Source of the DNA: Candidatus Krumholzibacteriia bacterium
GTDB taxonomy: Bacteria > Krumholzibacteriota > Krumholzibacteriia > G020349025
Assembly: GCA_035649275.1 (NCBI GenBank)
Contig: DASRJW010000024.1
Span: forward strand, 3,759-67,758
DNA: 64,000 nucleotides
Reading direction: 5' to 3'
Within the stretch, counting starts at the first letter, position 1; every line of letters begins with the position of its first letter. Both the position numbers and the translations under genes were made by a program. Below, piece by piece: positions 12,650 to 57,679 of the stretch. The notes below the pieces were generated by a model that worked only from the letters and a program-made list of their open reading frames with translations, was not told the origin of the DNA and made no database searches.

Positions 12650-14270
12650 GATGCCCTCCACCGAGCGCGCCGTCCTCGAGACCGAGGACTACATCAATGC
12701 CGATTACAACATCAAATCGTGGCTGCTGACCACGGATCACAAGCGCATCGCCGTGCTCTATCTGATCTCGGTGACGCTGTTCTTCCTCATCGGCGGCCTC
12801 TTCGCCGTCCTCATCCGTCTGGAGCTGCTGACGCCGCAGGGCGATCTGATGCAGTCGGACACCTACAACCGCGTCTTCACCATGCACGGCGTGACGATGG
12901 TGTTCTTCTTCCTCATCCCCTCCATCCCCACGGTGCTAGGCAACTTCCTCGTGCCCATGATGGTGGGGGCCCGGGATCTGGCCTTCCCCAAAGTGAACCT
13001 GGCTAGCTGGTACGTGTTCAACCTGGCCGGGGTCTTCACCCTCTACGCTATGTTCGCCGGCGGCGTGGACACGGGCTGGACCTTCTACACGCCCTACAGC
13101 ACCACCTACTCCAACACCCACGTGGTGGCCACCGGGCTCGGCGTCTTCATCGCCGGTTTCTCCTCCATCATGACCGGCCTCAACTTCATCGTCACCATCC
13201 ACCGCATGCGGGCGCCGGGGCTCACCTGGTTCCGCCTGCCCCTCTTCCTCTGGGCGCATTACGCCACCAGCCTAGTGATGATCCTGGGTACACCGGTGAT
13301 CGCGATCACCACCCTGCTGCTGGCAGTGGAGCGGGGTTTCAAGATCGGCATCTTCGACCCCAATCTGGGCGGCGACCCGGTGCTCTTCCAGCACCTGTTC
13401 TGGTTCTACTCGCACCCGGCGGTGTACATCATGGTGCTCCCGGCCATGGGTGTGATCAGCGAGCTCATCGCCGCTTTCGCGCGCAAGCCCGTCTTCGGCT
13501 ACAAGATCGTCGCCGCGTCGAGCATGTCCATCGCCATCCTCGGCTTCCTGGTCTGGGGCCACCACATGTTCGTGAGCGGCCAGTCGGTGTACGCCGCCAC
13601 GGTGTTCTCCGTCCTCAGCATGCTGGTGGCGGTGCCGTCGGCGGTGAAGGTGTTCAACTGGACAGCGACGCTGTACAAGGGCTCGGTCTCTTTCGAAACC
13701 CCCATGCTCTACGCCCTGGGTTTCATCGGCCTCTTCACCGTGGGCGGGTTGACCGGGGTGATGCTGGCGACGCTCGGGCTCGACGTGCACGTGCACGACA
13801 CCTACTTCGTGGTGGCGCATTTCCACTACATCATGGTGGGCGGCACGATCATGGCGTACCTGGGGGGGCTGCACTTCTGGTGGCCGAAGATGTCCGGACG
13901 CCTGTATCCGCAGTTCTGGTCCAGGCTCTCGGCGCTCATCATCTTCGTCGGCTTCAACCTCACCTTCTTCCCCCAATTCCTCCTCGGCTACATGGGGATG
14001 CCACGGCGCTACCACGTCTATCCCGAGGAGTTTCAAGTGCTGCACGTGCTCTCCAGCGCCGGCGCCTCCATCCTGGGGGTGGGCTACATCCTGCCGGTGT
14101 TCTATCTCACCTGGTCGATGCGCTACGGGCCGCGGGCCTCGGCCAATCCCTGGGGGGCCACGGGGCTCGAGTGGCAAACGTCGTCGCCGCCGCCGACGCA
14201 CAACTTCCTGGAGACCCCGGTGGTGACCACGGACGCGTACCACTACAGCGAAGAGGTGACCGTTGGCTAA
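12627..14270 (+). CDS. coxA: Cytochrome c oxidase subunit I
   Basis: Canonical heme-copper oxidase subunit I sequence ([24 protein letters not shown]; [17 protein letters not shown]). 547 aa. Confidence 0.92.
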
Positions 14271-27387: not shown

Positions 27388-28650
27388 ATGGAGTACGAGC
27401 GCGACGAGAAGCGCATCCTGGGCGTCACCGGCCTGGCGCACTTCCTCACCCATCTGTATGAGCTCTCTTTCCCGGCGCTCGCCCTCACCGTGCGCGACGA
27501 TCTCGGTTTGTCGCTGGCCGAAGTGCTGCGGCTGTCGTTCCTGATGTATCTCTTCTTCGGTCTCGGAGCCTTGCCCATGGGACTCCTCGCCGACCACTGG
27601 AAGGCGAAATCGGTGCTTCTCGTCACGCTCCTCGGCGCTGGCCTGGGTTGCCTGCTCGTCTCCCGCGCCGGCACGCCGGGCCAGTTCGCCGCGGCGCTGG
27701 CACTCGTCGGCGTCTGCATCAGCGGCTATCACCCGGCGGGGATGGCGTTGCTCTCCCGCGGCGTCCGCCAGCGCGGCCGCGCCCTCGGCGTGAACGGCGT
27801 CTACGGCAACTTGGGCAGCGCCATGGCCCCCTTCATCGCCGGCCTCCTCGGCTACGCGGTCGGCTGGCGCGGCGCCTATCTCTGCCTCGGTCTCCTTGGC
27901 CTCGCCGGCGGATTGATCACCCTCGCCATCCCCATCGAGGAGCACCGAGCAGGCGGCGGGCCAGCACGGCGTGCGGTGAACGCCCCGGCACACTCGAGCA
28001 GCGGCGAGAGCCCGCTCGGCTCCTTCGCGGTTCTCTGCGTCGCCATGCTGCTCGCAGGCTTCGCTTACCGCGGTGTCGCCTTGGTGTTGCCGGCCACATT
28101 CCAGGAAGAAACCACCTTCCTCTCCAACTTCCTGCAACGCGTGCACTGGACGCACCTGCAGGGCTCGGCCAACCTGGCGGCGACACTCATCGCCTCCGCG
28201 GTGTACGCCGTCGGCATCGCCGGCCAGCTCCTGGGCGGTCACCTGGCGGACCGGCACGACCTGCGCAAGCTCTATCTCTGTTTCCACGCCGCGAGCCTGC
28301 CCTTCGTCTTCGCCATGGGTTTCCTCTCCGAGTGGGGCCTGGTGCTGGCGGCAGGCACCTACATCTTCTTCGCCCTGGGAATGCAGCCGATCGAGAACAG
28401 TCTGGTGGCGCGCTTCACACCGGAGCGCTGGCGCAGCACCAGCTACGGCATCAAGTTCGCCCTCAACTTCGGCGTCGGCTCGATGGCGGTGTACGGCGTA
28501 GCGGCGCTGCATGGGGAGAAGGGCTTCCTGCCGGTGTATGTCGCAGTGTCCTGCGTCGTCTTCCTCGTCTGCACGACCGCAGCACTGCTCTTGCTCCGCA
28601 CCCGCGGTGCCGCGGTACGCAACGAGGCTGCCGCAGCCTTGCTCTCCTGA
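27388..28650 (+). CDS. MFS transporter
   Basis: 12-TM MFS architecture; immediately downstream of kynA (5-nt gap). Confidence 0.8.
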   Translation: MEYERDEKRILGVTGLAHFLTHLYELSFPALALTVRDDLGLSLAEVLRLSFLMYLFFGLGALPMGLLADHWKAKSVLLVTLLGAGLGCLLVSRAGTPGQFAAALALVGVCISGYHPAGMALLSRGVRQRGRALGVNGVYGNLGSAMAPFIAGLLGYAVGWRGAYLCLGLLGLAGGLITLAIPIEEHRAGGGPARRAVNAPAHSSSGESPLGSFAVLCVAMLLAGFAYRGVALVLPATFQEETTFLSNFLQRVHWTHLQGSANLAATLIASAVYAVGIAGQLLGGHLADRHDLRKLYLCFHAASLPFVFAMGFLSEWGLVLAAGTYIFFALGMQPIENSLVARFTPERWRSTSYGIKFALNFGVGSMAVYGVAALHGEKGFLPVYVAVSCVVFLVCTTAALLLLRTRGAAVRNEAAAALLS

Positions 28651-30321: not shown

Positions 30322-33096
30322 TCACTGTCCGATCACGCAGACCTTGCGGGATTGGCTCCTGGCGCCCTGGCTGAGCTTGACCAGGTAAACGCCAGAAGGA
30401 AGCTTCGCTTCTCGTCCGAGTCGCACGGTGTGCTGTCCGGGGCCGAAGGCGGACAGCGGGCGACTCCACACCCGGCGTCCTGCGGTGTCGAGAATCTCGA
30501 TCGCCCCCTGCACCTGGTCGGGAAGCGAAAACGACAGAGACATCTCGCGCACCACGGGGTTGGGGTGCACGGCGTCGAGCCTGAACGCAAGCGGGTAGGC
30601 GCTCATGTCGGTGGCACCGGGGATGTCCACCCACGTGACCTCGGAGTAGCGCTCCGTGCTGCCCGCCATCACGCTGGCGCGATAGGCGTACCGCAGCCCG
30701 GCCTGCACGTTGTGATCCTCGTACTGTGCCTGGCCGTCGGAACCCAGGGAAGCGCTGCCCGCCCATGCCCACGCGCTGCCATCCAAGGAGCGGTAGACGT
30801 TGGCGTGCAGGAACGCGCCTCCGAACAGGCTCCAGGTCAAGCGCACCTCACCGAGCAAGACTTCTACGTTGGTCAGCGCCGGCACCGCCGTCTCCGGATG
30901 GGACCAGGTGAGCGCCCAGGTCTCGTCCAGGCCGGGGCCGAGCCCGCCGTGCATCACCATTCGATCGCGCTCGCGGTCGTAGACGGCTGCGTGTCCCCAA
31001 CGATAGATCGGCGTCGGACCGTCGGGGGTCAGCTGTCGCCACTGCGGCTGGCCGCGCAGCGTCAACTCCCAGAGGTCCTGACTGCCGTAGAAGTACAGAT
31101 TGTCGTAGCCGCCGAAGATGACCAATCGCTCCCGCACTGGGTCGTAGATCGCCGATTGCTCCTCCCGAGGCGAGGGTGGGGTGCCGAAGGGTGCCAGTTG
31201 GACCCAAGTGAGATCGTCCAGCGACAGTGCCCAGACTTCGTTGAGGAACGTGTACGCGCTTCCGCCGAAGACCAGCATGCGGTGGCGGTCGCTGTCATAG
31301 ACCAACGAATGGCTGCCCCGGGGGCTCGGCGGCGTGCCGACCGGCGCGAGTTGCTCCCATTCGGGAACCGCCGGGTCGAGGTTGAGCGCCCACAGATCAT
31401 TGCGGCGGTAATTCTCCGAAACGCCGTCCCAACCGGCGAACAGGATCATGCGGTGGCCGCGCGGATCGTAGATCACACCGTGCCCCGCTCGGGCGGCGGG
31501 AGGGCCACCGGTGGTGACGAGCACGCTCCAGGTCGGCGGGTTGGTTGCGAAAGAGAGCTGCCAGAGATCGCCAAAGAGCCGATCGTCCCAGCCTCCGAAG
31601 ACGATTATCCGATCGCCCTCGGGATCGTAGATTCCCTCCACCAGGCGCCGGGGGGCCGGCGGGGTGCCGGCGGTCGTGAGCTGGCTCCACACCGGGTGAT
31701 CGTCGAGCGTGATGGTCCAGGAGCTGTTGAGATAGGATGCCACGTTGCTGCCGCCGAACAGCACCATACGGTGCCGGTGTGAATCGTAGGCGGAAGCGAA
31801 GGTGTGACGCACCGGTCCGGGACCGGGACCGACGAGAGGATGGCTCCAGGATGGGGGACCGCTCAAGCTGAGGACGAATGTACCGGTAGGCAGGCGGTAG
31901 TTCGTGCCGCCGCCGAACAGGATGGCTCGAGCCCCATCGTCATCGTAGACGGCGGTGTGTCCCCAGCGCGGACCGGGTCCAAAGCCGGTCGGCTCGAGCT
32001 CGGTCCAAAGCGGCGGGTTGGCCAGCAACAGCGTCCACGTGTCGCCGTACAAGAACGTGGCGTCGTAGCCACCGTAGATGATCAGTCGATCGTTCCCGGC
32101 GTCGTAGATCATCGAGTGCTCTTCGCGCGCTGCCGGCAACAACCCGGCCGCGGCGATCGGGGTCCACTCCGGGATTCCGCCGAGCGAAAGGGCCCAGACG
32201 TCGTTCCGAAAGTCCGTATCGGTACCGCCGAAGACCACCATGGCCTGGCGCAAATCGTCGTAGACCGCCTCATGGCTGGAGCGTGCGGTCGGACCATCCA
32301 CTGCCGGCGTGAGCTCGGTCCACTCGGGATTCCCGCCGAGGGAGAGAGACCAGACGTCCTTGCGGCGCTCCGTCGGGCCGGAAAGGCCGTCGTAGCCAGC
32401 GAAGACGATCATCCGATCTCGATCGGAGTCGTAGATCGCCGTGTGGCCGGCGCGCGCCACCGGAGTCGATCCGGCGGGTTGGAGCTGGCTCCACGTGGGC
32501 GGCGCGGTGGTGAAATCGAGTTCCCACACGTCACTCAGCAAGTCCCAGCTGTAGCCGGCGTACACGACCATGCGATCGCTGTTGGCGTCGTACACGGCGG
32601 TGTGGAACGCGCGGCTCAACGGCGGAGTGCCCTGGGTGGTGAGTGGCTCCCAAGCTGCCTGGGGAACGGTCAGGTCGAGAACCCAGGTGTCGTTGGTGAA
32701 ACCGCCGAAGATCACCATGCGATCCCGATTCGGATCGTAGATCGCGCTGTGTCCGATGCGTGCCGGACCGGCCGCGCCGCCCTGGCCCGAACCGGCGAGC
32801 AGAGACCACTCGCCATCGATCGGGTTGCTGGTGAGCGGAGGGGACGCTAAGGGCCCGGAGGCGATACGGGCACTCCTCAGGTTCGACAACGGGTGAAGCA
32901 TTCCGCCGTGGGGAATGCGAGTGAGCGCCGTGCGCTCGAAGCGGACATTGCCGGCCCAAGGGCGAGCGGCACGTGCCTCGACGTCGGGAAGAAGGGTGGC
33001 GGTCGATCTTTCCGCGGCGGTAGTCAGGGAAGAGTAGTGGAGCGCGAGCAAAATGACGGTCGCGACTCCCAGCCTAGAAACCAGGTTCGCGCGCAT
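30322..33096 (-). CDS. Secreted multi-propeller Kelch-repeat protein with a C-terminal T9SS/FlgD-Ig-like sorting domain
   Basis: N-terminal signal peptide. About 16 tandem Kelch motifs (...YDxxxDRMxxFGG...NDxWxL). The C-terminal segment SGVYLVKLSQG...KVCVIGQ resembles Por/T9SS C-terminal domains. 924 aa. Confidence 0.7.
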   Translation of the reverse strand: MRANLVSRLGVATVILLALHYSSLTTAAERSTATLLPDVEARAARPWAGNVRFERTALTRIPHGGMLHPLSNLRSARIASGPLASPPLTSNPIDGEWSLLAGSGQGGAAGPARIGHSAIYDPNRDRMVIFGGFTNDTWVLDLTVPQAAWEPLTTQGTPPLSRAFHTAVYDANSDRMVVYAGYSWDLLSDVWELDFTTAPPTWSQLQPAGSTPVARAGHTAIYDSDRDRMIVFAGYDGLSGPTERRKDVWSLSLGGNPEWTELTPAVDGPTARSSHEAVYDDLRQAMVVFGGTDTDFRNDVWALSLGGIPEWTPIAAAGLLPAAREEHSMIYDAGNDRLIIYGGYDATFLYGDTWTLLLANPPLWTELEPTGFGPGPRWGHTAVYDDDGARAILFGGGTNYRLPTGTFVLSLSGPPSWSHPLVGPGPGPVRHTFASAYDSHRHRMVLFGGSNVASYLNSSWTITLDDHPVWSQLTTAGTPPAPRRLVEGIYDPEGDRIIVFGGWDDRLFGDLWQLSFATNPPTWSVLVTTGGPPAARAGHGVIYDPRGHRMILFAGWDGVSENYRRNDLWALNLDPAVPEWEQLAPVGTPPSPRGSHSLVYDSDRHRMLVFGGSAYTFLNEVWALSLDDLTWVQLAPFGTPPSPREEQSAIYDPVRERLVIFGGYDNLYFYGSQDLWELTLRGQPQWRQLTPDGPTPIYRWGHAAVYDRERDRMVMHGGLGPGLDETWALTWSHPETAVPALTNVEVLLGEVRLTWSLFGGAFLHANVYRSLDGSAWAWAGSASLGSDGQAQYEDHNVQAGLRYAYRASVMAGSTERYSEVTWVDIPGATDMSAYPLAFRLDAVHPNPVVREMSLSFSLPDQVQGAIEILDTAGRRVWSRPLSAFGPGQHTVRLGREAKLPSGVYLVKLSQGARSQSRKVCVIGQ

Positions 33097-33416
33097 CGAT
33101 GGCCCCTTCCTGCAGGATCAGGGGATTGTGAGCGACAACAATACGTCCAATGCTTCGCATCGTCAAGAATTGCTTCCGACAGCTCGAACGCGGCTCGAGG
33201 CAACGGCCTGCGTCGCATCAGCTCAGACGGCCACCTGGAGCCACCAACCTTTCGCTCCCCAGTCGGTACTTGTGTTGACGGGGAGTCGCTGAGGGCCCTG
33301 GGCAAGCTGGGCCTCAAGGTGCGACATGGGCTCGGGGGCTGGATGGACTGACCCCGACTCCGTGAGTACCAGCCCAAAGGCGTTTAGAGCCCTCCGCGCG
33401 CAATGGGAGGAACGCC

Positions 33417-33947
33417 ATGAAATCTTGCCTACGACTGTCCATTCTCTGCGTCCTGCTTCTCGCTACCGGATGGGCCCATGCAGGGCCAGCGGACGACACT
33501 CGAGCCGTCTTCAAGACGCTGCTCACATCTGTTCCCGTGCCTCCGGAATGGGAGGGAATTTGGGTAACAGTAGACTCGACCGACAACTGCTTTTATCCTG
33601 ACGGCGCCAGCGCTTTGTCATCCGAGTACTGGATCTGCGCGGGCCGGGATTTCTATCCTGACGTAACCTGCACAGGGACAGCGACGGCAACGACTCTCCA
33701 TCTCCACTGCGGCTCCATGGATTGCGGCGACGAATGCTGTAGTGGCTACAGCGTGACGTTCGACGTTACACGAAATGGAGATTCGTTCGACTCCGTGGAG
33801 GTATACGAGGCCTTTTGGGGTTGTGGTTATGAGCTGTGCACGACCTTACGCGCCCATGGCACACGCACCGGGCCCGTCCCCAAGGATTACTGTGTCACTC
33901 CGGTTTTGCCTACGACCTGGGGTGGCGTGAAAGCCATGTATCGTTGA
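33417..33947 (+). CDS. Small secreted cysteine-rich protein (10 Cys in the mature part)
   Basis: Signal peptide MKSCLRLSILCVLLLATGWAHA. No recognisable family. Sits in a low-GC islet. Confidence 0.5.
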   Translation: MKSCLRLSILCVLLLATGWAHAGPADDTRAVFKTLLTSVPVPPEWEGIWVTVDSTDNCFYPDGASALSSEYWICAGRDFYPDVTCTGTATATTLHLHCGSMDCGDECCSGYSVTFDVTRNGDSFDSVEVYEAFWGCGYELCTTLRAHGTRTGPVPKDYCVTPVLPTTWGGVKAMYR

Positions 33948-35591
33948 TCAGTCCGCTTTGGGCAGGTTGCTCTTCTGGTAGGAGAAGCGGCCGAGGAGGA
34001 GACCCACCGTGGTGCGCCGGGCCACTGGCTCGACGGTGCCGCCGCAGCGCTCGGGGAGCGGCACCGGGCCGCCCGGGAAGGTGACGCCGTAGAGCGAGGA
34101 GACGCCCTCGGCGGCCAGGAAGGTCTGCAACGCCGGCATGAGGGTTTCGCGCCGCGGCGATCCTTGCAGATCCGAGGCCAGGCTGGAATCGCTGGTGAAG
34201 GCGGCGCCCTGGGGCAGGGAGACATCGAAACCCTGGGCCGCGAGCTCGTGCTCGGGATCGCGCACCAGCCAGAGAAGCGCGATGGGACGCTCTTGCCAGA
34301 GGGCGACGACGGCGCGCTCCCCGTGGCGCATCCGCGCCAGCGCCGCGATCAGCATGTCCGACTTCACGCCCTCCTGGCGCACCATGGCCTTGATCTGCGA
34401 ATAGCGCGCCCACTGCACGCGGAATTCCGAGGGCACCGGGGGCAAGGGCTGCGCCCGCCAGAGGAACCGGTGCGTGCGTCCCCAGCGCGCGCGGCGCTGG
34501 CGTGCCTTCGCCGCCGCTGTGGTCTCGCCGGGCGGGCCCGGACGCACGACCTCGTGGGCCCGGGGCTGCACGATCTCCAGCGACACGTTCTCGCGCTTGA
34601 CGTTGGCGAAGCGCTCCTTGTGCGCCGTCTGCCCCAGGGCGAAGTCGAACTCCCGCGCGTCGGCGGCGAGGGCGTCCTCGAGCAGCCGCTTCAGCATCAC
34701 CTCGCCCGGCGAATAGCGGGCGTAGTCGACGTTGAAGCTCGGCATGTACCAGGTGAAGACGCGGTCGTAGAGGAAGCCGAAGTGGAAAGCGAGGAGCTCA
34801 TCGCGCCAGCGCAGGGCCGAGAAGCGCAGCCATCCCGATTCGAGGAGTGTCTGGGAGACGCGCTCGAAGAAGCGCCGGTTGCGCATGTCGTCGAAGAGGC
34901 TGCGGTCGCCCGCCATGAAGCGCCGGTCCCGGTGCTGCTCGAAGAAGTGGGGTAGCAGGTCGGCGACCTCGTCGCTGTCGAGCACGTGCGAGAAGGCCAG
35001 GGGGGCCAAGTGCTCGAAGTAGCGGGTGTGGCGTACCAGGCTGCGCTTGCGGGCGCAGGTTTCGGCGAAGGTACGGCTCTTTTCCAAGGACAGCGCCGGG
35101 CAGGCGCCGGCGCTCTGCTTGCGCACCACCCAGCCTTCCGGTTGCGCTTGTTGCTCCAGGAGCGGCATGGTGGCGCTCGCCGACGGGATGTTCTGCAGCC
35201 GCAGGACGTCCCAGCGATCGCGGCGGCGCACGAGCGCCTCGAAGATCGTGGCGATCACCCAGGGTTTGTTTTCGGCGGCGGCGATGACGTCGGCGTAATC
35301 CGACAAGCCGGTGCCGAGGAACTCCACCACCCGGAGGCCGTCGTCACGGCGGAGCTGCAGAGGCGCGATCCCCACCAGTTCATCGTTGCGCAGCACGGCG
35401 AACGTGTACAACTCGGCGTCGGCGCCATAGCACTCCCACCAGGTGGAGAGCCAATCCCAGGTGAGGAAGATGCTGCGCGTCTCGCTCTGCTTGTGCAGAC
35501 GGCTCCACGACGCCCGCCCCAGCGGCAGGTCGTGCAGGTTCTGGCACAAGCGCGTCTGATGTTCCGTCGCCGAAACGAGAAGCTCCGACAT
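33948..35591 (-). CDS. CelD/FemAB-like (BioF2-type GNAT, PF13480-like) acyltransferase with an extra roughly 170-aa C-terminal domain
   Basis: N-terminal 380 aa are CelD-like (WLSTWWECYG, FHFGFLYDRVFTWYMPSFN, GEVMLKRLLEDA). Start taken at MSELLVS (ATG 35591). Abuts the stop of the Cys-rich gene. Confidence 0.55.
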   Translation of the reverse strand: MSELLVSATEHQTRLCQNLHDLPLGRASWSRLHKQSETRSIFLTWDWLSTWWECYGADAELYTFAVLRNDELVGIAPLQLRRDDGLRVVEFLGTGLSDYADVIAAAENKPWVIATIFEALVRRRDRWDVLRLQNIPSASATMPLLEQQAQPEGWVVRKQSAGACPALSLEKSRTFAETCARKRSLVRHTRYFEHLAPLAFSHVLDSDEVADLLPHFFEQHRDRRFMAGDRSLFDDMRNRRFFERVSQTLLESGWLRFSALRWRDELLAFHFGFLYDRVFTWYMPSFNVDYARYSPGEVMLKRLLEDALAADAREFDFALGQTAHKERFANVKRENVSLEIVQPRAHEVVRPGPPGETTAAAKARQRRARWGRTHRFLWRAQPLPPVPSEFRVQWARYSQIKAMVRQEGVKSDMLIAALARMRHGERAVVALWQERPIALLWLVRDPEHELAAQGFDVSLPQGAAFTSDSSLASDLQGSPRRETLMPALQTFLAAEGVSSLYGVTFPGGPVPLPERCGGTVEPVARRTTVGLLLGRFSYQKSNLPKAD

Positions 35592-35770
35592 CAGCCACCT
35601 TCCGTCGCACCCGTTGGTCCGCGCCGAGGGCATCCAGTTCCGTGCCAAGCGCCGGCGTCGGGAGTCCTGACCCGGTACTTGCCCCGGGTGCCGTGGTGCA
35701 CTAGGATTCGGCCTGCAGGTTGGAGCCGCGGCAGGGTGCGTAGCGGCACCACGCGCAGGAGAGGGGAACG

Positions 35771-41254: not shown

Positions 41255-41742
41255 GCCCCTCCTGCCCCTACCGGCGGGACGAGGCGCGTACCGGCGCCGG
41301 GTCCCGGCGTTTGCAGGAAGATTTCCTCCACCTGAATCTCCACTGCCAGCGCGGGCTCCAGCATGTAGTCGCGGAGGAGCTGCTCCGGAAGTTCCGGGAA
41401 CATGGTGCGCACACCCTTCTGAAAACGAGCGACGATGCGCGCGTGAGCGGCGTGGTCCTGCGGCTCGGGATCCCGGTGGCGGAGGTAGCGGCCCTTGAAC
41501 TGATAGGTCTCGTGCGAGGGAAACTCCTCGATGGTGACCGAGTACTGCCCGTTGTCCGTGAGGTTGTCGACGAGCTGATCGGTGAACTGGGCGGGCACCA
41601 GGCAGATCAGCGAATCCCGATCCGCTCCGATCCGCCAGCCGATGACGCGATGCCCGTAGGGGACGAGATCCCGGTCGCGGCTTCCCGAGGTGGCAACGTT
41701 GGCGTATTCCTCGAGGAATCTCTGGATCTTGCCCGGAATCAT
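41251..41742 (-). CDS. Pyridoxamine 5'-phosphate oxidase-like family protein
   Basis: Start at MIPGKIQRFLEEYANVATSG (ATG 41742). The track ORF 41251..42114 carries an Arg/Ser-rich junk extension. Confidence 0.5.
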   Translation of the reverse strand: MIPGKIQRFLEEYANVATSGSRDRDLVPYGHRVIGWRIGADRDSLICLVPAQFTDQLVDNLTDNGQYSVTIEEFPSHETYQFKGRYLRHRDPEPQDHAAHARIVARFQKGVRTMFPELPEQLLRDYMLEPALAVEIQVEEIFLQTPGPGAGTRLVPPVGAGGA

Positions 41743-41764
41743 CGTCCCCCCGTGACTCTCGCGC

Positions 41765-42064
41765 CTAGCTCCACTTCTTCCCGAGTCCGTCGAGACCGGC
41801 TTCCTTGAGGTCTTCGGGACGCATTGCGATTCTGAACTCGCAGTCTGCGTCGAAGCTGAGGAACCACGGTTCGGCGAAGGACGGAACTTGCGAAGGGTTC
41901 TCGATGTGAATGACGAGAATCGCTCCCCGCGTTCCGTTCTGTTCGGTGAAGTAGACAGCTTCGGGCTTGGTGGCCTCGAGAATCTTGTTGATCGTCGCGC
42001 CGGCGCTTCCGTCTCTGACCTTGGAGTTGAACGGTTCGTGCGGAATACGAACCGTGAGCAGCAT
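41765..42064 (-). CDS. Small hypothetical protein (99 aa) in a low-GC segment
   Basis: MLLTVRIPHEPFNSKVRDGSAGATINKILEATKPEAVYFTEQNG...; local GC is clearly lower than the flanks. Confidence 0.45.
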   Translation of the reverse strand: MLLTVRIPHEPFNSKVRDGSAGATINKILEATKPEAVYFTEQNGTRGAILVIHIENPSQVPSFAEPWFLSFDADCEFRIAMRPEDLKEAGLDGLGKKWS

Positions 42065-42155
42065 ACGCACGGTCCACTCCTTCGTTTTCGGGATACTAGT
42101 GAGGGCGACCGCACGCACAGTACAATGTCGGGCCGCGAGAGTCAACGACGGGCGC

Positions 42156-42509
42156 TCAGACGACGCCGAGCTTGCCGAGCGGCCGGCGGCCGGAGAAGCC
42201 GGTGCTGTAGTCGTGGAAGAACTCGATGGTGGCTTCCGGGTGGTGCCAGCAGTAGTAGATGCCGTCGCCGCTGTCGAAATCCACCAGCCACATGCCTTTC
42301 ACCTCGACTCCCAGCTCCATGATCGCCGCCCCCCAGGCGCGCAGGATGCGATCGTATTGCTCTTCGAGCCCGCGTCGGGCGTCGCCTTCCGGCTTGGCTT
42401 CGAGCTGCCGGACCACCGCCTCGGCTTCCTTCACCGCCGCAGCGGTGATGGCCTGCACCCGGGGCAGCGTCTCCCGGGATTCCTTCAAGGTGAAGATGCG
42501 TTTGCTCAT
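42156..42509 (-). CDS. DUF2203-like small protein
   Basis: 117-aa ORF starting MSKRIFTLKESRETLPRVQ. The 588-aa track ORF 42156..43922 is an artefactual extension antisense to pepP. Confidence 0.5.
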   Translation of the reverse strand: MSKRIFTLKESRETLPRVQAITAAAVKEAEAVVRQLEAKPEGDARRGLEEQYDRILRAWGAAIMELGVEVKGMWLVDFDSGDGIYYCWHHPEATIEFFHDYSTGFSGRRPLGKLGVV

Positions 42510-43987: not shown

Positions 43988-46693
43988 CTAAGGTTTGCGT
44001 GTCGTATCCGGCGGGGTGGGTGCCGGTGCGGGCGGAGGCGGCAGGATCCCCTTCACCGCCTCCTGGAGTGAGCGTCCGAGCTTCTTCTTCGCTTCCTCGG
44101 TCGCCACGTTGCCGAGGAGCCGCTGGATCTGCTGCGCCCCCAACGCCTGCAGACCGGTGCGCCGCGCCGTGGCCTGCAGATCCGGTCGCACCTTCGGAGC
44201 GCGGAGCGTGCCATCGATGTCGAAGTCGAGCACGAGGCGGCCGGCGCTATCGGTGAACAGCGAGCCCAGGCCTCGCGTCGCGGGCGCCCGCAACGCCTGC
44301 TGGGTGAGGGCCGAGGAGAGCTGCACGCCGAGGGCGAGATCGAGCCCGCCATCGAGGCCGATCTTCCCCTCGACTGTCGCATCGGCATCGTTGCCCTGCA
44401 GCTTCAGTGAAGGCAGCTTGACCTGTCCCGACTCGACGGCGAAGGAGAAGCCGACCTGGCGGTAACTCAAGTTGGACAGGCTCGGCAAGCCGAGGACGGC
44501 GCCGAGCTGTTTGAGGATCGGAAGTTCCTTGAAGCGGCCGTTCACCGCCAGGCCTTGCCCCTTGCCGGTCAACTGTTGGCGCATCGCTGCCGCACCAGCG
44601 CCAGTGACATTCCAGGACGAAGTGCCGTCCAAGGTTCCTTCCACCAGGCTGCCAGCGCGGAAAAAGTCTTCGAGCAGTCCACCGAGCTGCACCTTGTCCA
44701 TCTCGACGACGAGCTCCTGCCGCGGTGCTGCGGGGGTGGCGAGATCCACCTTCATGCTGCCGCCGAGTTTGCCGTCGTACGTCTGGGCGGTGAGATTCGG
44801 CAGCTCCAGCGTCGTGCCATCGAGGTGCAGATCGCTCTGCAGTGCAGCAGCACGGATCTTGTTGAGCCGGCCGCTCTTCGCCTGCAAGTGGCCGCGGGCC
44901 CGTGCCGGCGTGCCGGCGAGCTCGGCCTGGCAATCTTCGAGGAGGAAATTGTCGCGCTCGAGCCGGGCGGCGCGGAGTGTGAGGTGGAAATCTTGAGCTT
45001 CGCTCTTCCATTGCAGGCGGGCGTCGCGGAGGGCAGTGCGTTGCGCCTGCACCACGCCGGCTTCGAGGTCGAGCTCGAGATCGAGAGGTGGCAGCGGCGG
45101 AAGCAGCGTCTTGGCGCTTCCCGTCCCCTTGCCGCGGGTGGCGGCGGCCGTGTCGGTGCCAGTGGCCGTTGCAGGGAGCAGAGCATCCAAGTCGAGCGCC
45201 GCGGCTCGACCGCGCAAGGCGATCCGCGGCCGCTTGGGCGGCAGCGCCGGCTGTACCGTGCCGGAGCCGGCGAGGCGCGCCTCGCCGCAGGCGAGGTTCA
45301 GTTTTTCCACCTGGATCGTGGCGCCCGCGCCCACGAGCCGCGCTTGGAGCTCGAGCGGCTGCCGAAGCTGGGGCGTTTGGATCCGCACGCCTTCGAGCGC
45401 TAGCGGGCCGTGGAGGGAGGGCAGGGACTTGCCGGCCAGCCTACCTTCGAGGCGCGCGTCGGCTTGCAGCGTCCCCTCGAGGCGGTATGGCGGCGGCTTG
45501 GGCGCGAAGGTCGCGGCCACTGCGGCGAGCGTTGCGAGATCGAGCCGGGTACGCAGTTGTACGGAGTACGCGGCGTTCTCTGGGGCGAAGAGCGAGACGA
45601 TTTCACCCTGAAGACTTAGGGGCGCCTCGCCGATCCGGGCTTCGAGATGTTGGATCTGCAGCGAATCGCCGTGCAGCTTCGCTGTGAGCTCCAGGTCGCT
45701 GATGGAGGCCGGCCACTCTCGCGACTGCAGCCGGCCGCCGGCGAGGGCGAGATCACCCTCGAGGTGTGGCTTGCCCGTTCCCGGAGCATCGAGACGGAGG
45801 TCGATCCGGGCGCGACCTGATGCCTCCACCCCGGCCAGGCGCGGCAGCCGTTCCTTGGGCAAGAGCTCGAGGATCTCGGCCAGCTCGAACTCCTGGGAAC
45901 GCGTGCGCAAGTGCAGCTCTGGTTTGCGATCGTGGAGCGCCGCTTCACCTTCCAGCTGCAAGACGAAGTCCTGGAGGCGAAGGCGCAAGCTGTCGATGTG
46001 GGCGCTCGAAGCCCCGAGGTCGGCGCGCAGCACCGGTTCAAGCCGCACGGTGAGCGCGGGGAACTCACCGAGGGGACCGCGGGCCCGGAGTGCCGGGCTC
46101 TCGATCCAGCCCTGGAGACGGAGGTCGTGAAGGTTGCGGTCCAGGCCCATGGCGAGCTCAGCGGCGAGCGGCCCCTGTAACTCGAAGCCACTTTGCGCGC
46201 TCCGCAGCTCCAGGGCACCGTCTCGCAACAAGAGCTTGCGGATCTGCAACGCCATCGGCGTCCCCGCCTTGGCCGGTGCTGCCGGTGCGCTCGGCGTGCC
46301 GGGGGCACGATCGGTGGCGAAGTTCCACTGCCCCTGCTCATCCTGTTCCAAGAAGAGACGCAGTCCGTCGAGCACGAGGGACCTCACCTCGAGCTGGCGG
46401 CGGAGGAGCGCCAGGAAGCCGAGCTCGAGCTGCATGGCGTCGAGCTCGACCACATGCGGCGAGGCGAAACCGGGTCGCGCCCCGATGCGCACGGCCTCGA
46501 GGCGGGCAGCGAGCGGCATCAGGTCGAGCCGGGCACTGCCGATCTCCACCGGCCGTCCCAGTGCTGCTTCGAGACGAGGCTCGGCGAGGGCGAGCAGGCG
46601 CTCCGGAGGGAAGGCCGCGCGCAACCCGAGGAAGAGGGCGACGAGCGCGAGCACGAGGACGGCAGGGATGATGAGGAGGCGCTTCCTTCTCAT
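43988..46693 (-). CDS. asmA: AsmA-family outer-membrane biogenesis protein
   Basis: N-terminal membrane anchor MRRKRLLIIPAVLVLALVALFL, then a long repetitive beta-rich region. 901 aa. Confidence 0.65.
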   Translation of the reverse strand: MRRKRLLIIPAVLVLALVALFLGLRAAFPPERLLALAEPRLEAALGRPVEIGSARLDLMPLAARLEAVRIGARPGFASPHVVELDAMQLELGFLALLRRQLEVRSLVLDGLRLFLEQDEQGQWNFATDRAPGTPSAPAAPAKAGTPMALQIRKLLLRDGALELRSAQSGFELQGPLAAELAMGLDRNLHDLRLQGWIESPALRARGPLGEFPALTVRLEPVLRADLGASSAHIDSLRLRLQDFVLQLEGEAALHDRKPELHLRTRSQEFELAEILELLPKERLPRLAGVEASGRARIDLRLDAPGTGKPHLEGDLALAGGRLQSREWPASISDLELTAKLHGDSLQIQHLEARIGEAPLSLQGEIVSLFAPENAAYSVQLRTRLDLATLAAVAATFAPKPPPYRLEGTLQADARLEGRLAGKSLPSLHGPLALEGVRIQTPQLRQPLELQARLVGAGATIQVEKLNLACGEARLAGSGTVQPALPPKRPRIALRGRAAALDLDALLPATATGTDTAAATRGKGTGSAKTLLPPLPPLDLELDLEAGVVQAQRTALRDARLQWKSEAQDFHLTLRAARLERDNFLLEDCQAELAGTPARARGHLQAKSGRLNKIRAAALQSDLHLDGTTLELPNLTAQTYDGKLGGSMKVDLATPAAPRQELVVEMDKVQLGGLLEDFFRAGSLVEGTLDGTSSWNVTGAGAAAMRQQLTGKGQGLAVNGRFKELPILKQLGAVLGLPSLSNLSYRQVGFSFAVESGQVKLPSLKLQGNDADATVEGKIGLDGGLDLALGVQLSSALTQQALRAPATRGLGSLFTDSAGRLVLDFDIDGTLRAPKVRPDLQATARRTGLQALGAQQIQRLLGNVATEEAKKKLGRSLQEAVKGILPPPPAPAPTPPDTTRKP

Positions 46694-53859: not shown

Positions 53860-56800
53860 TTGCGTTTCCCTCGACACCTCGGGTTCTTGCTCCTCGGCCT
53901 CGTCGCGGTACCGGCGCAGGCGCAGCTGCAGTACTTCGGCAAGAACAAGGTCGAGTACGAGGAGCAGGACTGGCGTGTCCTGCAGACCCGGCACTTCGAC
54001 GTGCACTTCTACGCCGGTGAAGCGGCCATGGTGCACGACGCGGCGCGCTTGGCGGAACGGGCCTACACCGAGCTCGCCGCCGTCCTCGGTCACGAGTTGC
54101 CGCGGCGCATTCCCCTCGTCCTCTACGCCTCGCACTCCGACTTCCAGCAGACTCACATCACGCCGTCCATGATCGACGTCGGCACCGGGGGCATCACCGA
54201 TCTGGCGCGGCGGCGCGTCTTCCTGCCCTTCAACGGTTCCTGGGGCGACTTCCAGCACGTGCTCACCCACGAGCTCGTGCATGCCTTCGAGATCGACATT
54301 CTTTTCGATTCCACCCAGGGCGATCCGCTGAATCCCTTCGCCTTCGCGCCGCCGCTCTGGGTGATGGAGGGCCTGGCCGAGTACCTGTCGCGGCCCCAGC
54401 AGGACAGCTACACCGCCATGTGGCTGCGCGATGCGGCCCTCTCGGGACGGCTCCTGTCGCTGCCGCAGCTGGAGCAAGTCCAGGACATCCGTATTTACCG
54501 CTTCGGCCAGAGCGTCTTCTCCTACTTCGCCGAGCGTTACGGCAGCCGCCGCATCGGCGACCTGCTGCGTGCGCTCGCCACCAGTCGCAGCCTGGAGCGG
54601 GCGTTCGAGGATGTCGCCGGCGTCTCGTTGCAGCAGTTCTCCGAGGCGTGGACCACGGCCGTGCGCCGGCGGCACCTGCCCGAGCTCGGGCAGCACCAGC
54701 TGAACCGCGAGTACGCCACCCCGGTGGTCACCCGAGAGAGCGAGAACGCCGGCATGCTCCTCGTGCCGAGCATCTCGCCGGACGGCCGCTACCTGGCCTA
54801 CGTGAGCGACGCCGGGCTCACCCGCGACCTCTATGTCCGCGATATGGAGGAAGGGCGCTCGCGCCGGGTCGTGCACGGCGAGCAGAGCGGAGACTTCGAA
54901 TCGCTGCGTTTCTTCAACGCCAGCGCCGCCTGGGCGCCCGACGGCAAGACCCTCGCCTTCGTCTCGCAGTCGCGCGGCGAGGACGCCCTCAATCTCCTCG
55001 ACGTGCAGCGCCGACGTGTCGTCGCCAAATATCGCTTTGGTCTCGACGAGCTGCAGACTCCGACCTTCTCGCCGGACGGCGGCGAGCTGGTTTTCGTCGG
55101 TCTCGAGGGTGGGCAGAGCGATCTCTATCGCGTCCGCAGGGATGGCACCGATCTGCGCCGGCTCACCGCCGACCGCGCCGGCGAGCGGGATCCGCAGTGG
55201 TCACCGGACGGCCGGAAACTGGTCTACGTCACCGATGACGGTGAGGACGCGGACTTCGAGGCACTGCGCTTCGGCACTTGGAAGATCGCTCTTCTGGAGC
55301 TGGAGAGCGGCAGACGCGAATTGCTACGCCCCTTCAGAACAGGTGCCGCTGCCAGCCCTGTCTGGTCCGGAGACGGCGGCTCGATCGCCTTCATCGCCGA
55401 CCCGGACGGCATCCCGAACATCTATGTGCTGCACCTCGCGACGTCGAACGTCTTCCGCCTCACCGACACGGTGACCGGTGTGGGTGGCGTCTTGCCGGAG
55501 AGTCCGGCCCTGTCCTGGGCCCGGGGGAGCGATCGCCTGGTGTTCTCGGCCTTCGGTAACAGCGGCTGGGACATCTTCCGTATCGACCGCCCGGCCAGCG
55601 TCATGCGTCCCCTGGAAGGCGCCATCGCCAACCTCGTCACGAAACACGGTGCGACGGAGGCGGCAGGCCTTGTCGCTCCCGACTCCATGAGCGCGGTCAG
55701 CACAGTGGCGGACTCCGTCGCTCGCGACTCCCTCGCGATGAAGACCGTGTCGGTCGACTCCATCGCGCCGTCCTCGGTTGCTCGAGACACCATGGCGCCG
55801 TCCTCGCTTGCGTGGGACGGTATCGCGCCAGCCTCGGCTGCTCGCGACTCCAGCGCGGCCGCTGGCGCAGCATCGGCGGCCCTTCACCCCGGCGCCGGCA
55901 TGACCTCGCCGGCGGCGGCCACGACGCCGCCAGGCGTGCTGCTGCCGGCGCCCGAAGCGATGGATTTCGTCGAGCGCCCGTACCATGCGCACCTCGCCCC
56001 CGATGTCTCGCAGGTAGCAGGGGTCGTGGGAAGCCAGGGCGGTTTCGGCGGTGCCTCGCTCATCCACTTCAGTGACCTCCTCGGCGATCATTTGCTCAGT
56101 GTGGGCTTCGGCATCTATGGCTCGCTCAAGGATTCCGATCTTTCCCTCGAGTATCTGAACCGTTCGGGACGAACGAACTACCAGTTCGGCGTTTTCCAGC
56201 ACCAGCGGCGTTACGGGTTCCTGGCCTCCGCGGTAGCCGGAGTCGAGAAGCAGACGTATCTCGGCGTGCGCGCCGCCGCGATCCGTCCCTTCGACAAGTT
56301 CTCTCGTGTCGAAATGTCGATGCAGCTCGCCGCTGTTCGCGGCCGCTTCTTCTTGGGTGAGACCTTGGGGGATGGGAGCGTGCAGGAGCTACGCAGCTTC
56401 GCGGGCCCCGGGCTCGCCTACGTGGTGGACACGGCGCTCTTCGGTTCCACCGGCCCGATCATGGGGCGTCGCCTGCGCCTCGGCCTCGAGTCCGGTTTCG
56501 GCGAGCTCGACTTCCGCACCCTCGAACTCGACTGGCGGCAGTACTGGAGCTTCGGGGCCAGTTTCACGCTGGCCGCCCGTGGCTACCTCGCCGGGAGCTG
56601 GGGGGCGACGCCGCAGAGTTTCTTCCTGGGTGGAGCGAACACGCTGCGCGGTTACGCCTACGGCGCGCTCGCGGGAACTCACGCTGGTCTCGCAGGACTG
56701 GAGTTCCGCTTCCCACTCCTGCGCTACCTCGCCCTCGGCTGGCCCTTGCCGCTCGAGCTCGGCAACGTGCGCGGCGTTCTCTTCGCCGAATCCGGCTCGG

Positions 56801-57037: not shown

Positions 57038-57679
57038 CTACTCCCGGTACAGTCGCTTCACCACGTCCCAGTGCGTCGACTGGACGGCGACCGTCGTCGT
57101 ACCCGTCGTGAAACGCCAGACCGGACCCGAGACCTTGCCACAATCCTGGTCGGGGCTCGCTACGACTCGCCAGTAATAGGTGGTTTCCGGCTCCAGGAGT
57201 CCGGGAGTGAAAGGCTGGCAATCCTCCAGCGCGAGGCACACCAGCGGCGGGTCCGGGGTGGTCCCGAAGTACACATTGACGTACGCCGTGCCGATACCGC
57301 AGCAGTAAGATGGCCCCGTCGATCCCCAGGTCAACTGCGGTTCACGGGTTACGTTGACCGCCGCATCCAGCGGAAGTGGATCCGAAGGCACCGGGAGCAG
57401 CGGACCCGGTGAGGTCGAGCCACCCTGGACCGAGACCGCGGTGAACAACGGCGAGTTGCAGCGGTGGACGACAGGACCATCGATCGCCGGATTGCTCGGC
57501 GTGTGGTGGCCGGTGACCTGCAAGGCATAGACCGGCGACTGCCCCGGGGGAGCGAGAATCGTCACCGTGTAAAGCAGGACGGCGCCGTAGGCGGTGCCCG
57601 GGCAATCGCTGAAGCTCATGGCGCACCAATCTCCGAACGGGTCACCGATGGCGATCGCCGCAGGGTTAGGCGTCACCAC
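57038..57679 (-). CDS. Hypothetical protein with an FN3-like segment; possible N-terminal truncation or frameshift
   Basis: GTG start; ETTYYWRVVA...GPVWRFTT is FN3-like. A roughly 45-codon ORF with an AAGGAG SD lies just upstream in another frame. Confidence 0.4.
   Translation of the reverse strand: MVTPNPAAIAIGDPFGDWCAMSFSDCPGTAYGAVLLYTVTILAPPGQSPVYALQVTGHHTPSNPAIDGPVVHRCNSPLFTAVSVQGGSTSPGPLLPVPSDPLPLDAAVNVTREPQLTWGSTGPSYCCGIGTAYVNVYFGTTPDPPLVCLALEDCQPFTPGLLEPETTYYWRVVASPDQDCGKVSGPVWRFTTGTTTVAVQSTHWDVVKRLYRE

What the first reader, a model, noticed from the sequence alone, without database searches (positions are those of the whole stretch)
33097..33947. Low-GC divergent promoter region plus a 176-aa cysteine-rich secreted protein of unknown family
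The 320-bp region between the Kelch gene and this ORF, and the ORF itself, are markedly AT-richer than the surroundings. The mature protein has 10 Cys (five potential disulfides) and no recognisable family. It is bracketed by a giant secreted Kelch protein and a FemAB/CelD-like acyltransferase. These features together suggest a secreted effector, bacteriocin-like protein or adhesin cassette.
Basis: seen in the sequence. Interest (0 to 1): 0.6.

Follow-up and report, generated by a model that had tools for sequence, protein, structure and literature searches.

The report
Secreted cysteine-rich protein with C-terminal tag
The 176-residue gene is real and encodes an exported, disulfide-rich protein of an unnamed family, and its last 18-20 residues are a short end-tag shared by hundreds of unrelated exported proteins in Krumholzibacteria, Eisenbacteria and allied uncultured phyla, which looks like an undescribed protein-sorting signal.

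Summary
ORF 33417..33947 (+) is a real gene with a strong ribosome-binding site, a signal peptide and 10 cysteines in the mature part. It has no Pfam, NCBIfam, PHROG or PDB relative. It is the lowest-GC stretch of the window (57.4% against 67.8%; GC3 0.63 against 0.81-0.91).

It belongs to a metagenome-only family of about 172 clusters of ~185-aa proteins. Members share an 8-cysteine framework and a confidently predicted seven-strand all-beta core with no solved structural relative.

The window comes from a Candidatus Krumholzibacteria genome that also carries a paralog.

The proposed three-gene cassette with the Kelch and CelD-like neighbours is not conserved.

The main new result concerns the last ~18 residues, P-[VT]-P-[TV]-[ER]-x-x-[TS]-W-G-x-[IVL]-K-[AS]-L-Y-R-COOH. 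This is a portable tag at the extreme C-terminus. It sits on many unrelated signal-peptide proteins of Eisenbacteria, Krumholzibacteria, Latescibacteria, Fibrobacter relatives and others. These are the same kinds of cargo that carry PEP-CTERM or T9SS signals elsewhere.

No database model or paper describing the tag was found. The most likely reading is a Sec-exported surface or envelope protein routed by a new, transmembrane-less C-terminal sorting or anchoring signal. The function of the core is unknown.

The parts
33097..33416 (.). Divergent intergenic region between the Kelch gene (-) and the ORF (+)
   Evidence: GC is 0.628, the 7th percentile. One sigma-70-like match lies on the minus strand at 33166-33138. 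No Rfam match.
33373..33416 (+). Conserved upstream block CCCAAAGGCGTTTAGAGCCCTC...GGGAGGAACGCC, including the Shine-Dalgarno GGGAGGA at 33405-33411
   Evidence: Nearly invariant in orthologs L136 and L137 and in the paralog L001, although the rest of the upstream DNA does not align. No unusual RNA stability (z +0.5).
33417..33482 (+). Signal peptide, residues 1-22 (MKSCLRLSILCVLLLATGWAHA); cleavage inferred after A-H-A
   Evidence: Read from the sequence. An N-terminal hydrophobic leader is present across the family. No lipobox.
33483..33539 (+). N-terminal linker with a short helix, residues 23-41
   Evidence: AF2 full-length model: helix at 28-35, pLDDT about 60.
33540..33872 (+). Core domain, residues 42-152: seven long antiparallel strands with the cysteine framework. 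It opens with P-P-E-W-x-G-I-W and contains C-T-G-T-A-T-A-T, D-x-T-R-x-G-D and H-G-T-R-T-G.
   Evidence: Alignments A2 and A3. AF2 core model pLDDT 91.7, pTM 0.80. No PDB or BFVD match at E<=1e-3. No PDB sequence relative.
33885..33944 (+). C-terminal tag, residues 157-176 (DYCVTPVLPTTWGGVKAMYR), directly followed by the stop codon at 33945-33947
   Evidence: In unrelated proteins, family HMM positions 170-189 are the only part that matches. Logos from GTDB and metagenome scans. The motif is strictly C-terminal: 103 of 130 unbiased matches. Predicted amphipathic helix at 168-175, pLDDT about 72.
30322..33096 (-). Neighbour: 924-aa Kelch-repeat protein with a signal peptide and a T9SS type A C-terminal domain. 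Not functionally linked by any evidence.
   Evidence: Pfam and NCBIfam. Not conserved next to family members.
33948..35648 (-). Neighbour: Acetyltransf_6 (CelD/FemAB-like) gene, convergent. Its stop codon abuts the ORF's stop with 0 nt between them.
   Evidence: Present only in the near-identical contig L011.
57038..57679 (-). A second, unrelated ORF of the window ending in a variant of the same tag (...VAVQSTHWDVVKRLYRE)
   Evidence: Homologous to a tagged protein in L103.

Best explanation
The ORF is a genuine stand-alone gene of a Candidatus Krumholzibacteria genome. Its product is exported through Sec, and the signal peptide is probably cut after A-H-A at residue 22. In the periplasm it folds into a compact seven-strand all-beta domain stapled by four conserved disulfides, plus one extra pair in this protein. 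Its last 18-20 residues are not part of that fold. They are a portable C-terminal tag, P-[VT]-P-[TV]-[ER]-x-x-[TS]-W-G-x-[IVL]-K-[AS]-L-Y-R-COOH, often tied to the domain by a cysteine just upstream. Krumholzibacteria, Eisenbacteria, Latescibacteria, Fibrobacter relatives and allied lineages append this tag to many unrelated exported proteins. The tag most likely acts after Sec export as a sorting or anchoring signal. It would be read through its invariant W/G/K/Y/R positions and its free carboxyl end by a lineage-specific receptor or processing enzyme, and would decide the protein's final place (cell surface, outer membrane or secretion). The core is probably a surface-exposed binding module, because its loops and strands change fast while the scaffold, leader and tag stay fixed. 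Shown: the gene is real; the family and its cysteine framework; the predicted fold; the modular, strictly C-terminal, lineage-restricted and signal-peptide-linked nature of the tag; the lack of conserved synteny. Inferred: the cleavage site, the disulfide pairing, the sorting role of the tag, and the binding role of the core.
For: Gene and family. phmmer against 1.84 billion representatives gave 172 clusters at E<=1e-3, almost all 165-210 aa and matching end to end. Eight near-invariant cysteines are intact in 124 of 128 members, with paired losses of C58+C141 and of C74+C159. The AF2 model has pLDDT 85.6 full length and 91.7 for the core.

Tag is modular. The ORFs are 170-1337 aa and match the family HMM only at positions 170-189, scoring 12-21 bits. 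Positions not fixed by the pattern are conserved: P at -17, V/T at -16, P at -15, T/V at -14, E/R at -13, A/S at -4, L at -3, and Cys at -18 to -20.

Cargo is diverse. It includes Beta_helix, LTD, NosD, NHL, CHRD, CBMs and plastocyanin, though most proteins have no Pfam hit. It also includes NCBIfam families that elsewhere carry PEP-CTERM, GlyGly-CTERM, MYXO-CTERM or 'choice-of-anchor' labels: ScyF, ExeM-GG, M36 peptidases, choice_anch_V and DNRLRE.

Strictly C-terminal. In a scan without a stop codon in the pattern, 103 of 130 matches are followed at once by a stop and 13 more by a stop within 4 codons. The chance expectation is 4.7% (p 2e-110).

Exported. By a crude rule, 75 of 122 tagged ORFs have signal-peptide-like N-termini, against 107 of 2288 untagged ORFs of the same loci.

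Lineage. Record titles give about 40 Eisenbacteria, 7 Krumholzibacteria, 8 Fibrobacter-type, 4 Latescibacteria, 2 Poribacteria, 2 Gemmatimonadota and 1 Zixibacteria.

Window origin. The MFS protein is identical to HZM14705.1, Ca. Krumholzibacteria.

Tag is outside the fold. pLDDT is about 72 for residues 161-176 against 90 or more for the core.

Fast core evolution. dN/dS is 0.53, 0.97 and 0.48 overall, and 1.1-1.35 in residues 99-146.
Against: No receptor, sorting enzyme or conserved neighbour of tagged genes was found. Recurrent neighbours are only kinases, an ABC ATPase, T9SS-CTD proteins and a few C25 peptidases. The tag has no transmembrane helix and no folded domain, unlike every established C-terminal sorting signal, so it could act by itself as a membrane-binding helix. 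There is no experimental or proteomic evidence on location or cleavage. W, G, K, Y and R were fixed by my search patterns, so their invariance outside the family is by construction; only the other positions are independent evidence. Signal peptides were called by a crude rule, not by SignalP. The elevated dN/dS rests on a few short sequences and is not significantly above 1. It may reflect relaxed constraint rather than adaptive change.
Confidence: 0.6

Rival explanations
1. The tag is a self-sufficient in-plane anchor. The 10-residue amphipathic helix T-W-G-x-[IVL]-K-x-L-Y-R, with aromatic and basic residues, lies flat on a membrane or on lipopolysaccharide and tethers exported proteins. No dedicated machinery is needed, as with the C-terminal helix of E. 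coli PBP5 or the MinD membrane-targeting sequence.
For: AF2 predicts a helix at residues 168-175. The hydrophobic moment is 0.41-0.49 with near-zero mean hydrophobicity, and W, V/I, L and Y fall on one face. No dedicated neighbour gene was found.
Against: Known in-plane anchors conserve amphipathicity, not sequence (own knowledge). Here the unforced flanking positions and the exact end of the protein are conserved across unrelated proteins and several phyla. The helix is very short and is preceded by a conserved Pro-rich stretch that has no role in lipid binding.
Confidence: 0.2
2. The tag is a recognition peptide for something other than sorting: a C-terminal docking ligand for a PDZ, TPR or propeller partner, a protease-controlled stability signal, or an assembly handle that joins many different proteins to one surface scaffold.
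For: The free C-terminus is invariant and a stop follows at once, as expected for readers of the carboxyl end. These genomes are rich in PD40/Tricorn and C25 peptidase proteins near tagged genes.
Against: Nothing separates this from sorting. The cargo spectrum matches that of known sorting signals. No partner has been identified.
Confidence: 0.12
3. One reading: the Kelch protein, the cysteine-rich protein and the CelD-like acyltransferase form one effector, bacteriocin or adhesin cassette.
For: The three genes are adjacent, and the same ORF/CelD-like pair recurs in a near-identical strain. The core evolves fast, as many antagonistic or adhesive proteins do.
Against: No other family member has a Kelch or CelD-like neighbour. 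The three genes lie on alternating strands, so they are not an operon. The paralog in the same genome sits in another context. There is no hit to any bacteriocin, toxin, immunity or phage family.
Confidence: 0.05
4. The gene is a recent foreign acquisition (a small genomic islet) from a lower-GC donor, and its properties reflect the donor rather than the host.
For: It has the lowest GC of the window, with GC3 0.63 against 0.81-0.91. The same low GC3 (0.61-0.67) is seen in its paralog and close orthologs, whose flanking genes are at 0.71-0.88.
Against: The gene carries the host lineage's own C-terminal tag and a conserved upstream block shared with its paralog. There are no mobile-element genes, tRNA genes or repeats at its borders in the ORF lists. 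More distant family members have near-normal GC3. This rival concerns origin only and is compatible with the main explanation.
Confidence: 0.25

Closest known systems
C-terminal sorting signals read by dedicated enzymes: PEP-CTERM/exosortase, GlyGly-CTERM/rhombosortase, MYXO-CTERM, LPXTG/sortase
   Same: Located at the extreme C-terminus of signal-peptide proteins. Portable between unrelated cargo domains. Many paralogous cargo proteins per genome, often in tandem. Restricted to certain lineages. Cargo overlaps with families that NCBIfam names after such signals. A short Pro-containing motif (P-x-P-x-E) precedes the terminal segment.
   Different: There is no hydrophobic transmembrane helix and no terminal basic cluster, so the tripartite architecture that defines these signals is absent. 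The terminal segment is a 10-residue amphipathic helix ending in an invariant Y-R-COOH. No sortase-like partner has been identified.
Type IX secretion C-terminal domains (type A TIGR04183/PF18962; FlgD_ig-like)
   Same: A C-terminal address on exported proteins of FCB-group bacteria. Present in the same genomes, including the neighbouring Kelch protein.
   Different: T9SS CTDs are folded 70-100-residue beta-sandwiches. The tag is about 18 residues and unfolded or helical, and it gives no hit to either model. The two signals coexist and are therefore not replacements for one another.
C-terminal amphipathic membrane anchors (E. coli PBP5/PBP6 C-terminal helix, MinD membrane-targeting sequence)
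   Same: A short amphipathic helix at the very end of the protein, with aromatic and basic residues.
   Different: Those anchors are conserved in character, not in sequence (own knowledge). The tag is conserved residue by residue across unrelated proteins and phyla.
Small up-and-down beta proteins (lipocalin/calycin-like barrels, GFP-like barrels, M. tuberculosis PknI sensor domain 5xlm)
   Same: A meander of long antiparallel strands. These are the top Foldseek matches.
   Different: All matches are insignificant: E>=0.014, TM 0.2-0.41, rmsd above 10 A. There is no sequence relationship. The core has seven strands with a four-disulfide framework not seen in those folds.

Membership tests
T9SS type A cargo (Por_Secre_tail, TIGR04183/PF18962) | C-terminal 70-100-residue beta-sandwich domain that matches the model | tested here: not met
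   The ORF gives no hit at E<=0.1, whereas the neighbouring Kelch protein hits both models.
PEP-CTERM / exosortase-type sorting signal | Motif, then a hydrophobic transmembrane helix, then a basic cluster at the C-terminus | tested here: not met
   The last 20 residues, DYCVTPVLPTTWGGVKAMYR, contain no hydrophobic stretch long enough to span a membrane. No PEP-CTERM model hit the ORF, and none was among the families reported for the 110 tagged proteins.
Bacterial lipoprotein | Lipobox [LVI][ASTVI][GAS]C at the end of the signal peptide | tested here: not met
   Residues 8-11 are S-I-L-C, which is not a lipobox. C11 is not conserved in the family (S in P0002). The leader ends in A-H-A.
Sec/SPase I-exported protein | N-terminal basic region, hydrophobic core, A-x-A cleavage motif | tested here: met
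   MKSCLR / LSILCVLLLATGW / AHA, read from the sequence. The leader is conserved in the family. No dedicated predictor was available.
The 8-Cys, ~185-aa family defined here (alignment A2) | P-x-x-W-x-G-I-W start, eight framework cysteines, C-T-G-T and G-T-R motifs, terminal tag | tested here: met
   All invariant and near-invariant columns are present in the ORF. It has two additional cysteines, C103 and C108.
Proposed C-terminal tag class | P-[VT]-P-[TV]-x-x-x-[TS]-W-G-x-[IVL]-K-x-x-Y-R directly followed by the stop codon, on a protein with a signal peptide | tested here: met
   The ORF ends in T-P-V-L-P-T-T-W-G-G-V-K-A-M-Y-R followed by a stop. Its P-V-L-P spacing departs slightly from the P-V-P-T consensus.
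Proposed C-terminal tag class | Dependence on a dedicated receptor or sorting enzyme | not testable with these tools
   This needs whole-genome phylogenetic profiling or experiment. Neighbour analysis found no candidate.
Known bacteriocin, toxin or phage protein families | A match to any curated model | tested here: not met
   Pfam, NCBIfam and PHROGs give no hit. The PDB sequence profile gives no hit at E<=1.
Lipocalin/calycin fold | Eight-strand closed barrel with significant structural similarity | tested here: inconclusive

The most novel reading that the evidence does not exclude
The 18-residue tag that ends this protein marks an undescribed protein-sorting pathway of Krumholzibacteria, Eisenbacteria, Latescibacteria, Fibrobacterota and allied phyla. 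It would be a C-terminal signal with no transmembrane helix and no folded domain, read at the free carboxyl end by an unknown receptor or enzyme, and running in parallel with type IX secretion in the same cells. The 8-Cys protein would be one small, fast-evolving cargo of it.
Probability: 0.45. Interest if true: 0.8.

Novelty: new variant of a known kind. Interest (0 to 1): 0.62.

Why it matters
C-terminal sorting signals such as LPXTG, PEP-CTERM, GlyGly-CTERM and T9SS CTDs have each led to a secretion or anchoring machine and to a way of predicting a cell's surface proteome. Here a very short, sharply conserved end-tag labels a large and varied set of exported proteins: beta-helix enzymes, lectin-like domains, propellers and many small cysteine-rich proteins. 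The lineages involved are common in soils and sediments and are almost wholly uncultured. If the tag is a sorting signal, it gives a one-line rule for listing the surface or secreted proteins of these phyla. It also gives a handle (phylogenetic profiling against the tag) for finding the machine that reads it. Fibrobacter-type genomes carry the tag, so an experimental test in a cultivable relative may be possible. For the gene itself, the result replaces a speculative 'effector cassette' with a defined family, fold, framework and address label.

Tried and rejected
1. Pfam, NCBIfam and PHROGs on the ORF gave nothing.

2. The PDB sequence profile gave nothing.

4. The search for related loci in GTDB failed with A2 and A3, which were too diverse. 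With A1 it found no family member. The taxonomy of the family therefore rests on one exact-protein match to an NCBI Krumholzibacteria MAG.

5. A word-indexed profile search added only 17 proteins, all unnamed.

6. Rfam and RNA folding of the upstream region showed no RNA element. The promoter and terminator scan gave one weak minus-strand promoter-like site and no terminator.

7. I searched for conserved neighbours of tagged genes that might be the machinery. Only kinases, an ABC ATPase, T9SS-CTD proteins and C25 peptidases recurred in a few loci, so this was rejected as evidence.

8. The Peptidase_MA-PD40-Omp85 fusion next to the second tagged ORF was considered as a receptor. No homolog was found beside other tagged genes, only PD40-level similarity to cargo, so it was dropped.

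9. Eight literature searches, using motif strings, Eisenbacteria/Fibrobacter with sorting or T9SS, and choice-of-anchor, found no description of the tag.

10. My first exact-sequence look-ups of minus-strand genes used wrong ends. They were repeated correctly.

Full report
OBSERVATION. The ORF at 33417..33947 (+) exists as described. It has an ATG start preceded by GGGAGGA at 33405-33411. It encodes 176 codons and stops at 33945-33947. The product begins MKSCLRLSILCVLLLATGWAHA|GP, a typical Sec leader with an A-H-A cleavage motif and no lipobox. The remaining 154 residues hold ten cysteines.

Pfam and NCBIfam give no hit at E<=0.1. The neighbours are a 924-aa Kelch-repeat protein with a signal peptide and a type IX secretion tail (minus strand, 30322..33096) and an Acetyltransf_6 (CelD/FemAB-like) gene (minus strand, 33948..35648).

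The ORF is the lowest-GC 531-bp stretch of the whole window: 0.574 against a mean of 0.678 (sd 0.028). Its third-position GC is 0.627 against 0.81-0.91 in surrounding genes. The 320-bp intergenic region is only mildly low at 0.628, the 7th percentile. Only the 100 bp next to the Kelch start are clearly low.

IS IT A GENE, AND WHOSE? An exhaustive phmmer search of 1.84 billion representatives found 172 clusters at E<=1e-3. Nearly all are 165-210 aa and match from end to end. In an alignment of 128 members, G47, C85, C98, C107 and W168 are invariant. P42, W45, W49, C58, C74, G87, C136, C141, R150, C159, G169, K172 and Y175 are at least 90% conserved. All eight framework cysteines are intact in 124 of 128 members. 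The rare losses include C58 with C141 and C74 with C159, which suggests these are disulfide partners.

All members come from metagenomes and none carries a name. The window's MFS transporter (27388..28650) is identical to NCBI HZM14705.1 from a Candidatus Krumholzibacteria MAG. A paralog, P0005 (53% identical), lies next to a histidine ammonia-lyase identical to HZM14901.1. That accession series and organism name are the same, so the paralog appears to belong to the same MAG. The genome therefore carries at least two copies.

STRUCTURE. AlphaFold2 with the family alignment gives a confident model: pLDDT 85.6 full length, and 91.7 with pTM 0.80 for the core alone. It shows seven long antiparallel strands in a meander (residues 47-152). 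The terminal 16 residues are less confident (pLDDT about 72) and end in a short helix at 168-175.

THE CASSETTE IDEA. I examined seven contexts of family members. A near-identical contig (L011) repeats the CelD-like and DAGK genes. All the others differ. The neighbours are a helicase fragment and BNR/FlgD_ig proteins (L001); a methyltransferase and a beta-lactamase (L005); radical SAM and a copper ATPase (L132, L133); and an endonuclease/phosphatase-family protein and SnoaL/DinB (L134).

The gene is usually a lone plus-strand unit between minus-strand genes. In the window the three genes alternate in strand, so they cannot be one operon. The cassette reading is not supported.

THE C-TERMINAL TAG. 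Every family member ends in [TS]-W-G-x-[IVL]-K-x-x-Y-R. I searched GTDB genomes for this motif plus a stop codon as a degenerate DNA pattern.

By record title, the hits are about 40 Eisenbacteria, 7 Krumholzibacteria, 8 Fibrobacter-type, 4 Latescibacteria, 2 Poribacteria, 2 Gemmatimonadota and 1 Zixibacteria. About 50 are unnamed MAGs, and a handful are likely chance or mis-binned hits.

The ORFs that end at these matches are 170-1337 aa and are unrelated to the 8-Cys family. The family HMM matches them only at its last ~20 positions, at 12-21 bits.

Positions that the pattern did not fix are nevertheless conserved: P at -17, V/T at -16, P at -15, T/V at -14, E/R at -13, S/T at -11, A/S at -4, L at -3. 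A cysteine is present in about half of the proteins at -18 to -20.

A second, independent scan of metagenome contigs used a pattern without the stop codon and gave 130 matches. Of these, 103 are followed immediately by a stop and 13 more by a stop within four codons. Chance would give 4.7% (binomial p 2e-110). Most of the 14 exceptions lack the flanking motif or lie in very short ORFs. The logo was reproduced. Only one of the 103 proteins belongs to the 8-Cys family.

By a crude rule, signal-peptide-like N-termini occur in 75 of 122 tagged ORFs against 107 of 2288 untagged ORFs of the same loci.

Cargo domains are varied: right-handed beta-helix, lamin-tail domain, NosD, NHL, SGL, CHRD, CBMs, MAM and plastocyanin. 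Most have no Pfam family.

NCBIfam has no model for the tag itself. However, the cargo hits families that NCBI names after other C-terminal anchors or as 'choice-of-anchor': ScyF PEP-CTERM protein, ExeM-GG, rhombosortase- and myxosortase-dependent M36 peptidases, choice_anch_V, DNRLRE and NxxGxxAF repeats. From my own knowledge of those family descriptions, they denote domains found with different sorting signals in different lineages.

T9SS-type C-terminal domains are frequent on neighbouring genes in the same loci, so the two signals coexist. The window itself holds a second tagged ORF, 57038..57679 (-), ending ...THWDVVKRLYRE. It is related to a tagged protein in L103.

MECHANISM. What is shown: the tag is a portable module of 18-20 residues. 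It is strictly terminal, restricted to certain lineages, and attached to exported proteins of many folds.

What I infer: the tag is a post-Sec address or anchor. Its last ten residues form an amphipathic helix, with W, I/V, L and Y on one face and K and R flanking (hydrophobic moment 0.41-0.49). The residue-level conservation and the fixed free end argue for a protein reader rather than plain lipid binding. The membrane-anchor alternative cannot be excluded.

No reader was found. Recurrent neighbours are only Ser/Thr kinases, an ABC ATPase, T9SS-CTD proteins and C25 peptidases in a few loci.

Eight full-text searches found no description of the motif. That library is limited to open-access papers and preprints.

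THE CORE AND ITS EVOLUTION. Within the close subclade, Nei-Gojobori dN/dS is 0.53 (window against L136), 0.97 (against L137) and 0.48 (against the paralog). Values are 1.1-1.35 in residues 99-146 and 0.76-1.25 in residues 55-84. In most comparisons they are lower in the leader and N-terminal part (0.18-0.28, but 0.83 against L137) and in the C-terminal part (0.24-0.92). Counts are small and nothing is significantly above 1.

The pattern of a fixed scaffold, leader and tag with a changeable surface fits an exposed interaction protein better than a housekeeping one. What it binds is unknown.

SIDE OBSERVATIONS. This subclade (window, L011, L001, L002, L136, L137) has GC3 of 0.61-0.67, while flanking genes are at 0.71-0.91. 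More distant members are close to their genomes' norm.

A 44-nt block just upstream of the start (33373-33416) is nearly invariant in orthologs and in the paralog, although the rest of the intergenic DNA does not align. It has no Rfam match and no unusual folding energy.

VERDICT. The gene is a new member of an unnamed secreted 8-Cys family. Its real interest lies in the terminal tag. The tag resembles known C-terminal sorting signals in every contextual respect but not in architecture, and I could find it in no database or paper.

Noticed in passing
window 57038-57679 (-): A second ORF ending in a variant of the same tag (...VAVQSTHWDVVKRLYRE). It is 33% identical over 140 aa to a tagged protein in L103. 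No signal peptide is visible upstream, so the start may be mis-placed or the gene damaged.
   Followed up: partly
window 53860-57000 (+): A 1046-aa fusion of a Peptidase_MA_2 domain, a PD40 beta-propeller and a C-terminal Omp85 barrel, convergent with the second tagged ORF. This is an unusual architecture. No link to the tag was found.
   Followed up: partly
window 33373-33416 (+): A 44-nt block upstream of the start codon is nearly invariant between orthologs and a paralog whose coding dS is about 0.7. It could be a promoter or leader element. There is no Rfam hit and no unusual stability.
   Followed up: partly
window 33945-33950: The stop codons of the ORF (+) and of the convergent Acetyltransf_6 gene (-) abut with no base between them, and no terminator-like site lies nearby.
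   Followed up: no
L001 7992-8537; L136 438-983; L137 118-636; L002 753-1298: The paralog and close orthologs share the low third-position GC (0.61-0.67), while their flanking genes are at 0.71-0.88. More distant family members do not. The cause is unknown.
   Followed up: partly
window 12471-13212 and 41491-42332: These are the only other stretches of the window where 531-bp windows fall below 0.61 GC (minima 0.605 and 0.599).
   Followed up: no
L014 1225-6424 (-); also L047, L077, L108, L118, L124: Tagged genes often lie in tandem: three in a row in L014 and pairs in several other loci.
   Followed up: no
L097 2509-6591 (+) and three other GTDB loci: Large Peptidase_C25 proteins with a FlgD_ig (T9SS-type) tail recur beside tagged genes in 4 of 120 loci. 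This may be coincidence in genomes rich in such paralogs.
   Followed up: partly
L021, L030, L051, L066, L092 (tagged ORFs of 169-195 aa): Several other small cysteine-rich secreted proteins (6-10 Cys) of similar size carry the tag but are unrelated in sequence to the 8-Cys family. Small disulfide-rich cargo seems to be a recurrent class.
   Followed up: partly
window 43988-46693 (-): A 901-aa AsmA/YhdP-like protein, of a family associated with the outer-membrane lipid-transport proteins AsmA and YhdP. It is ordinary and is noted only as envelope context.
   Followed up: no
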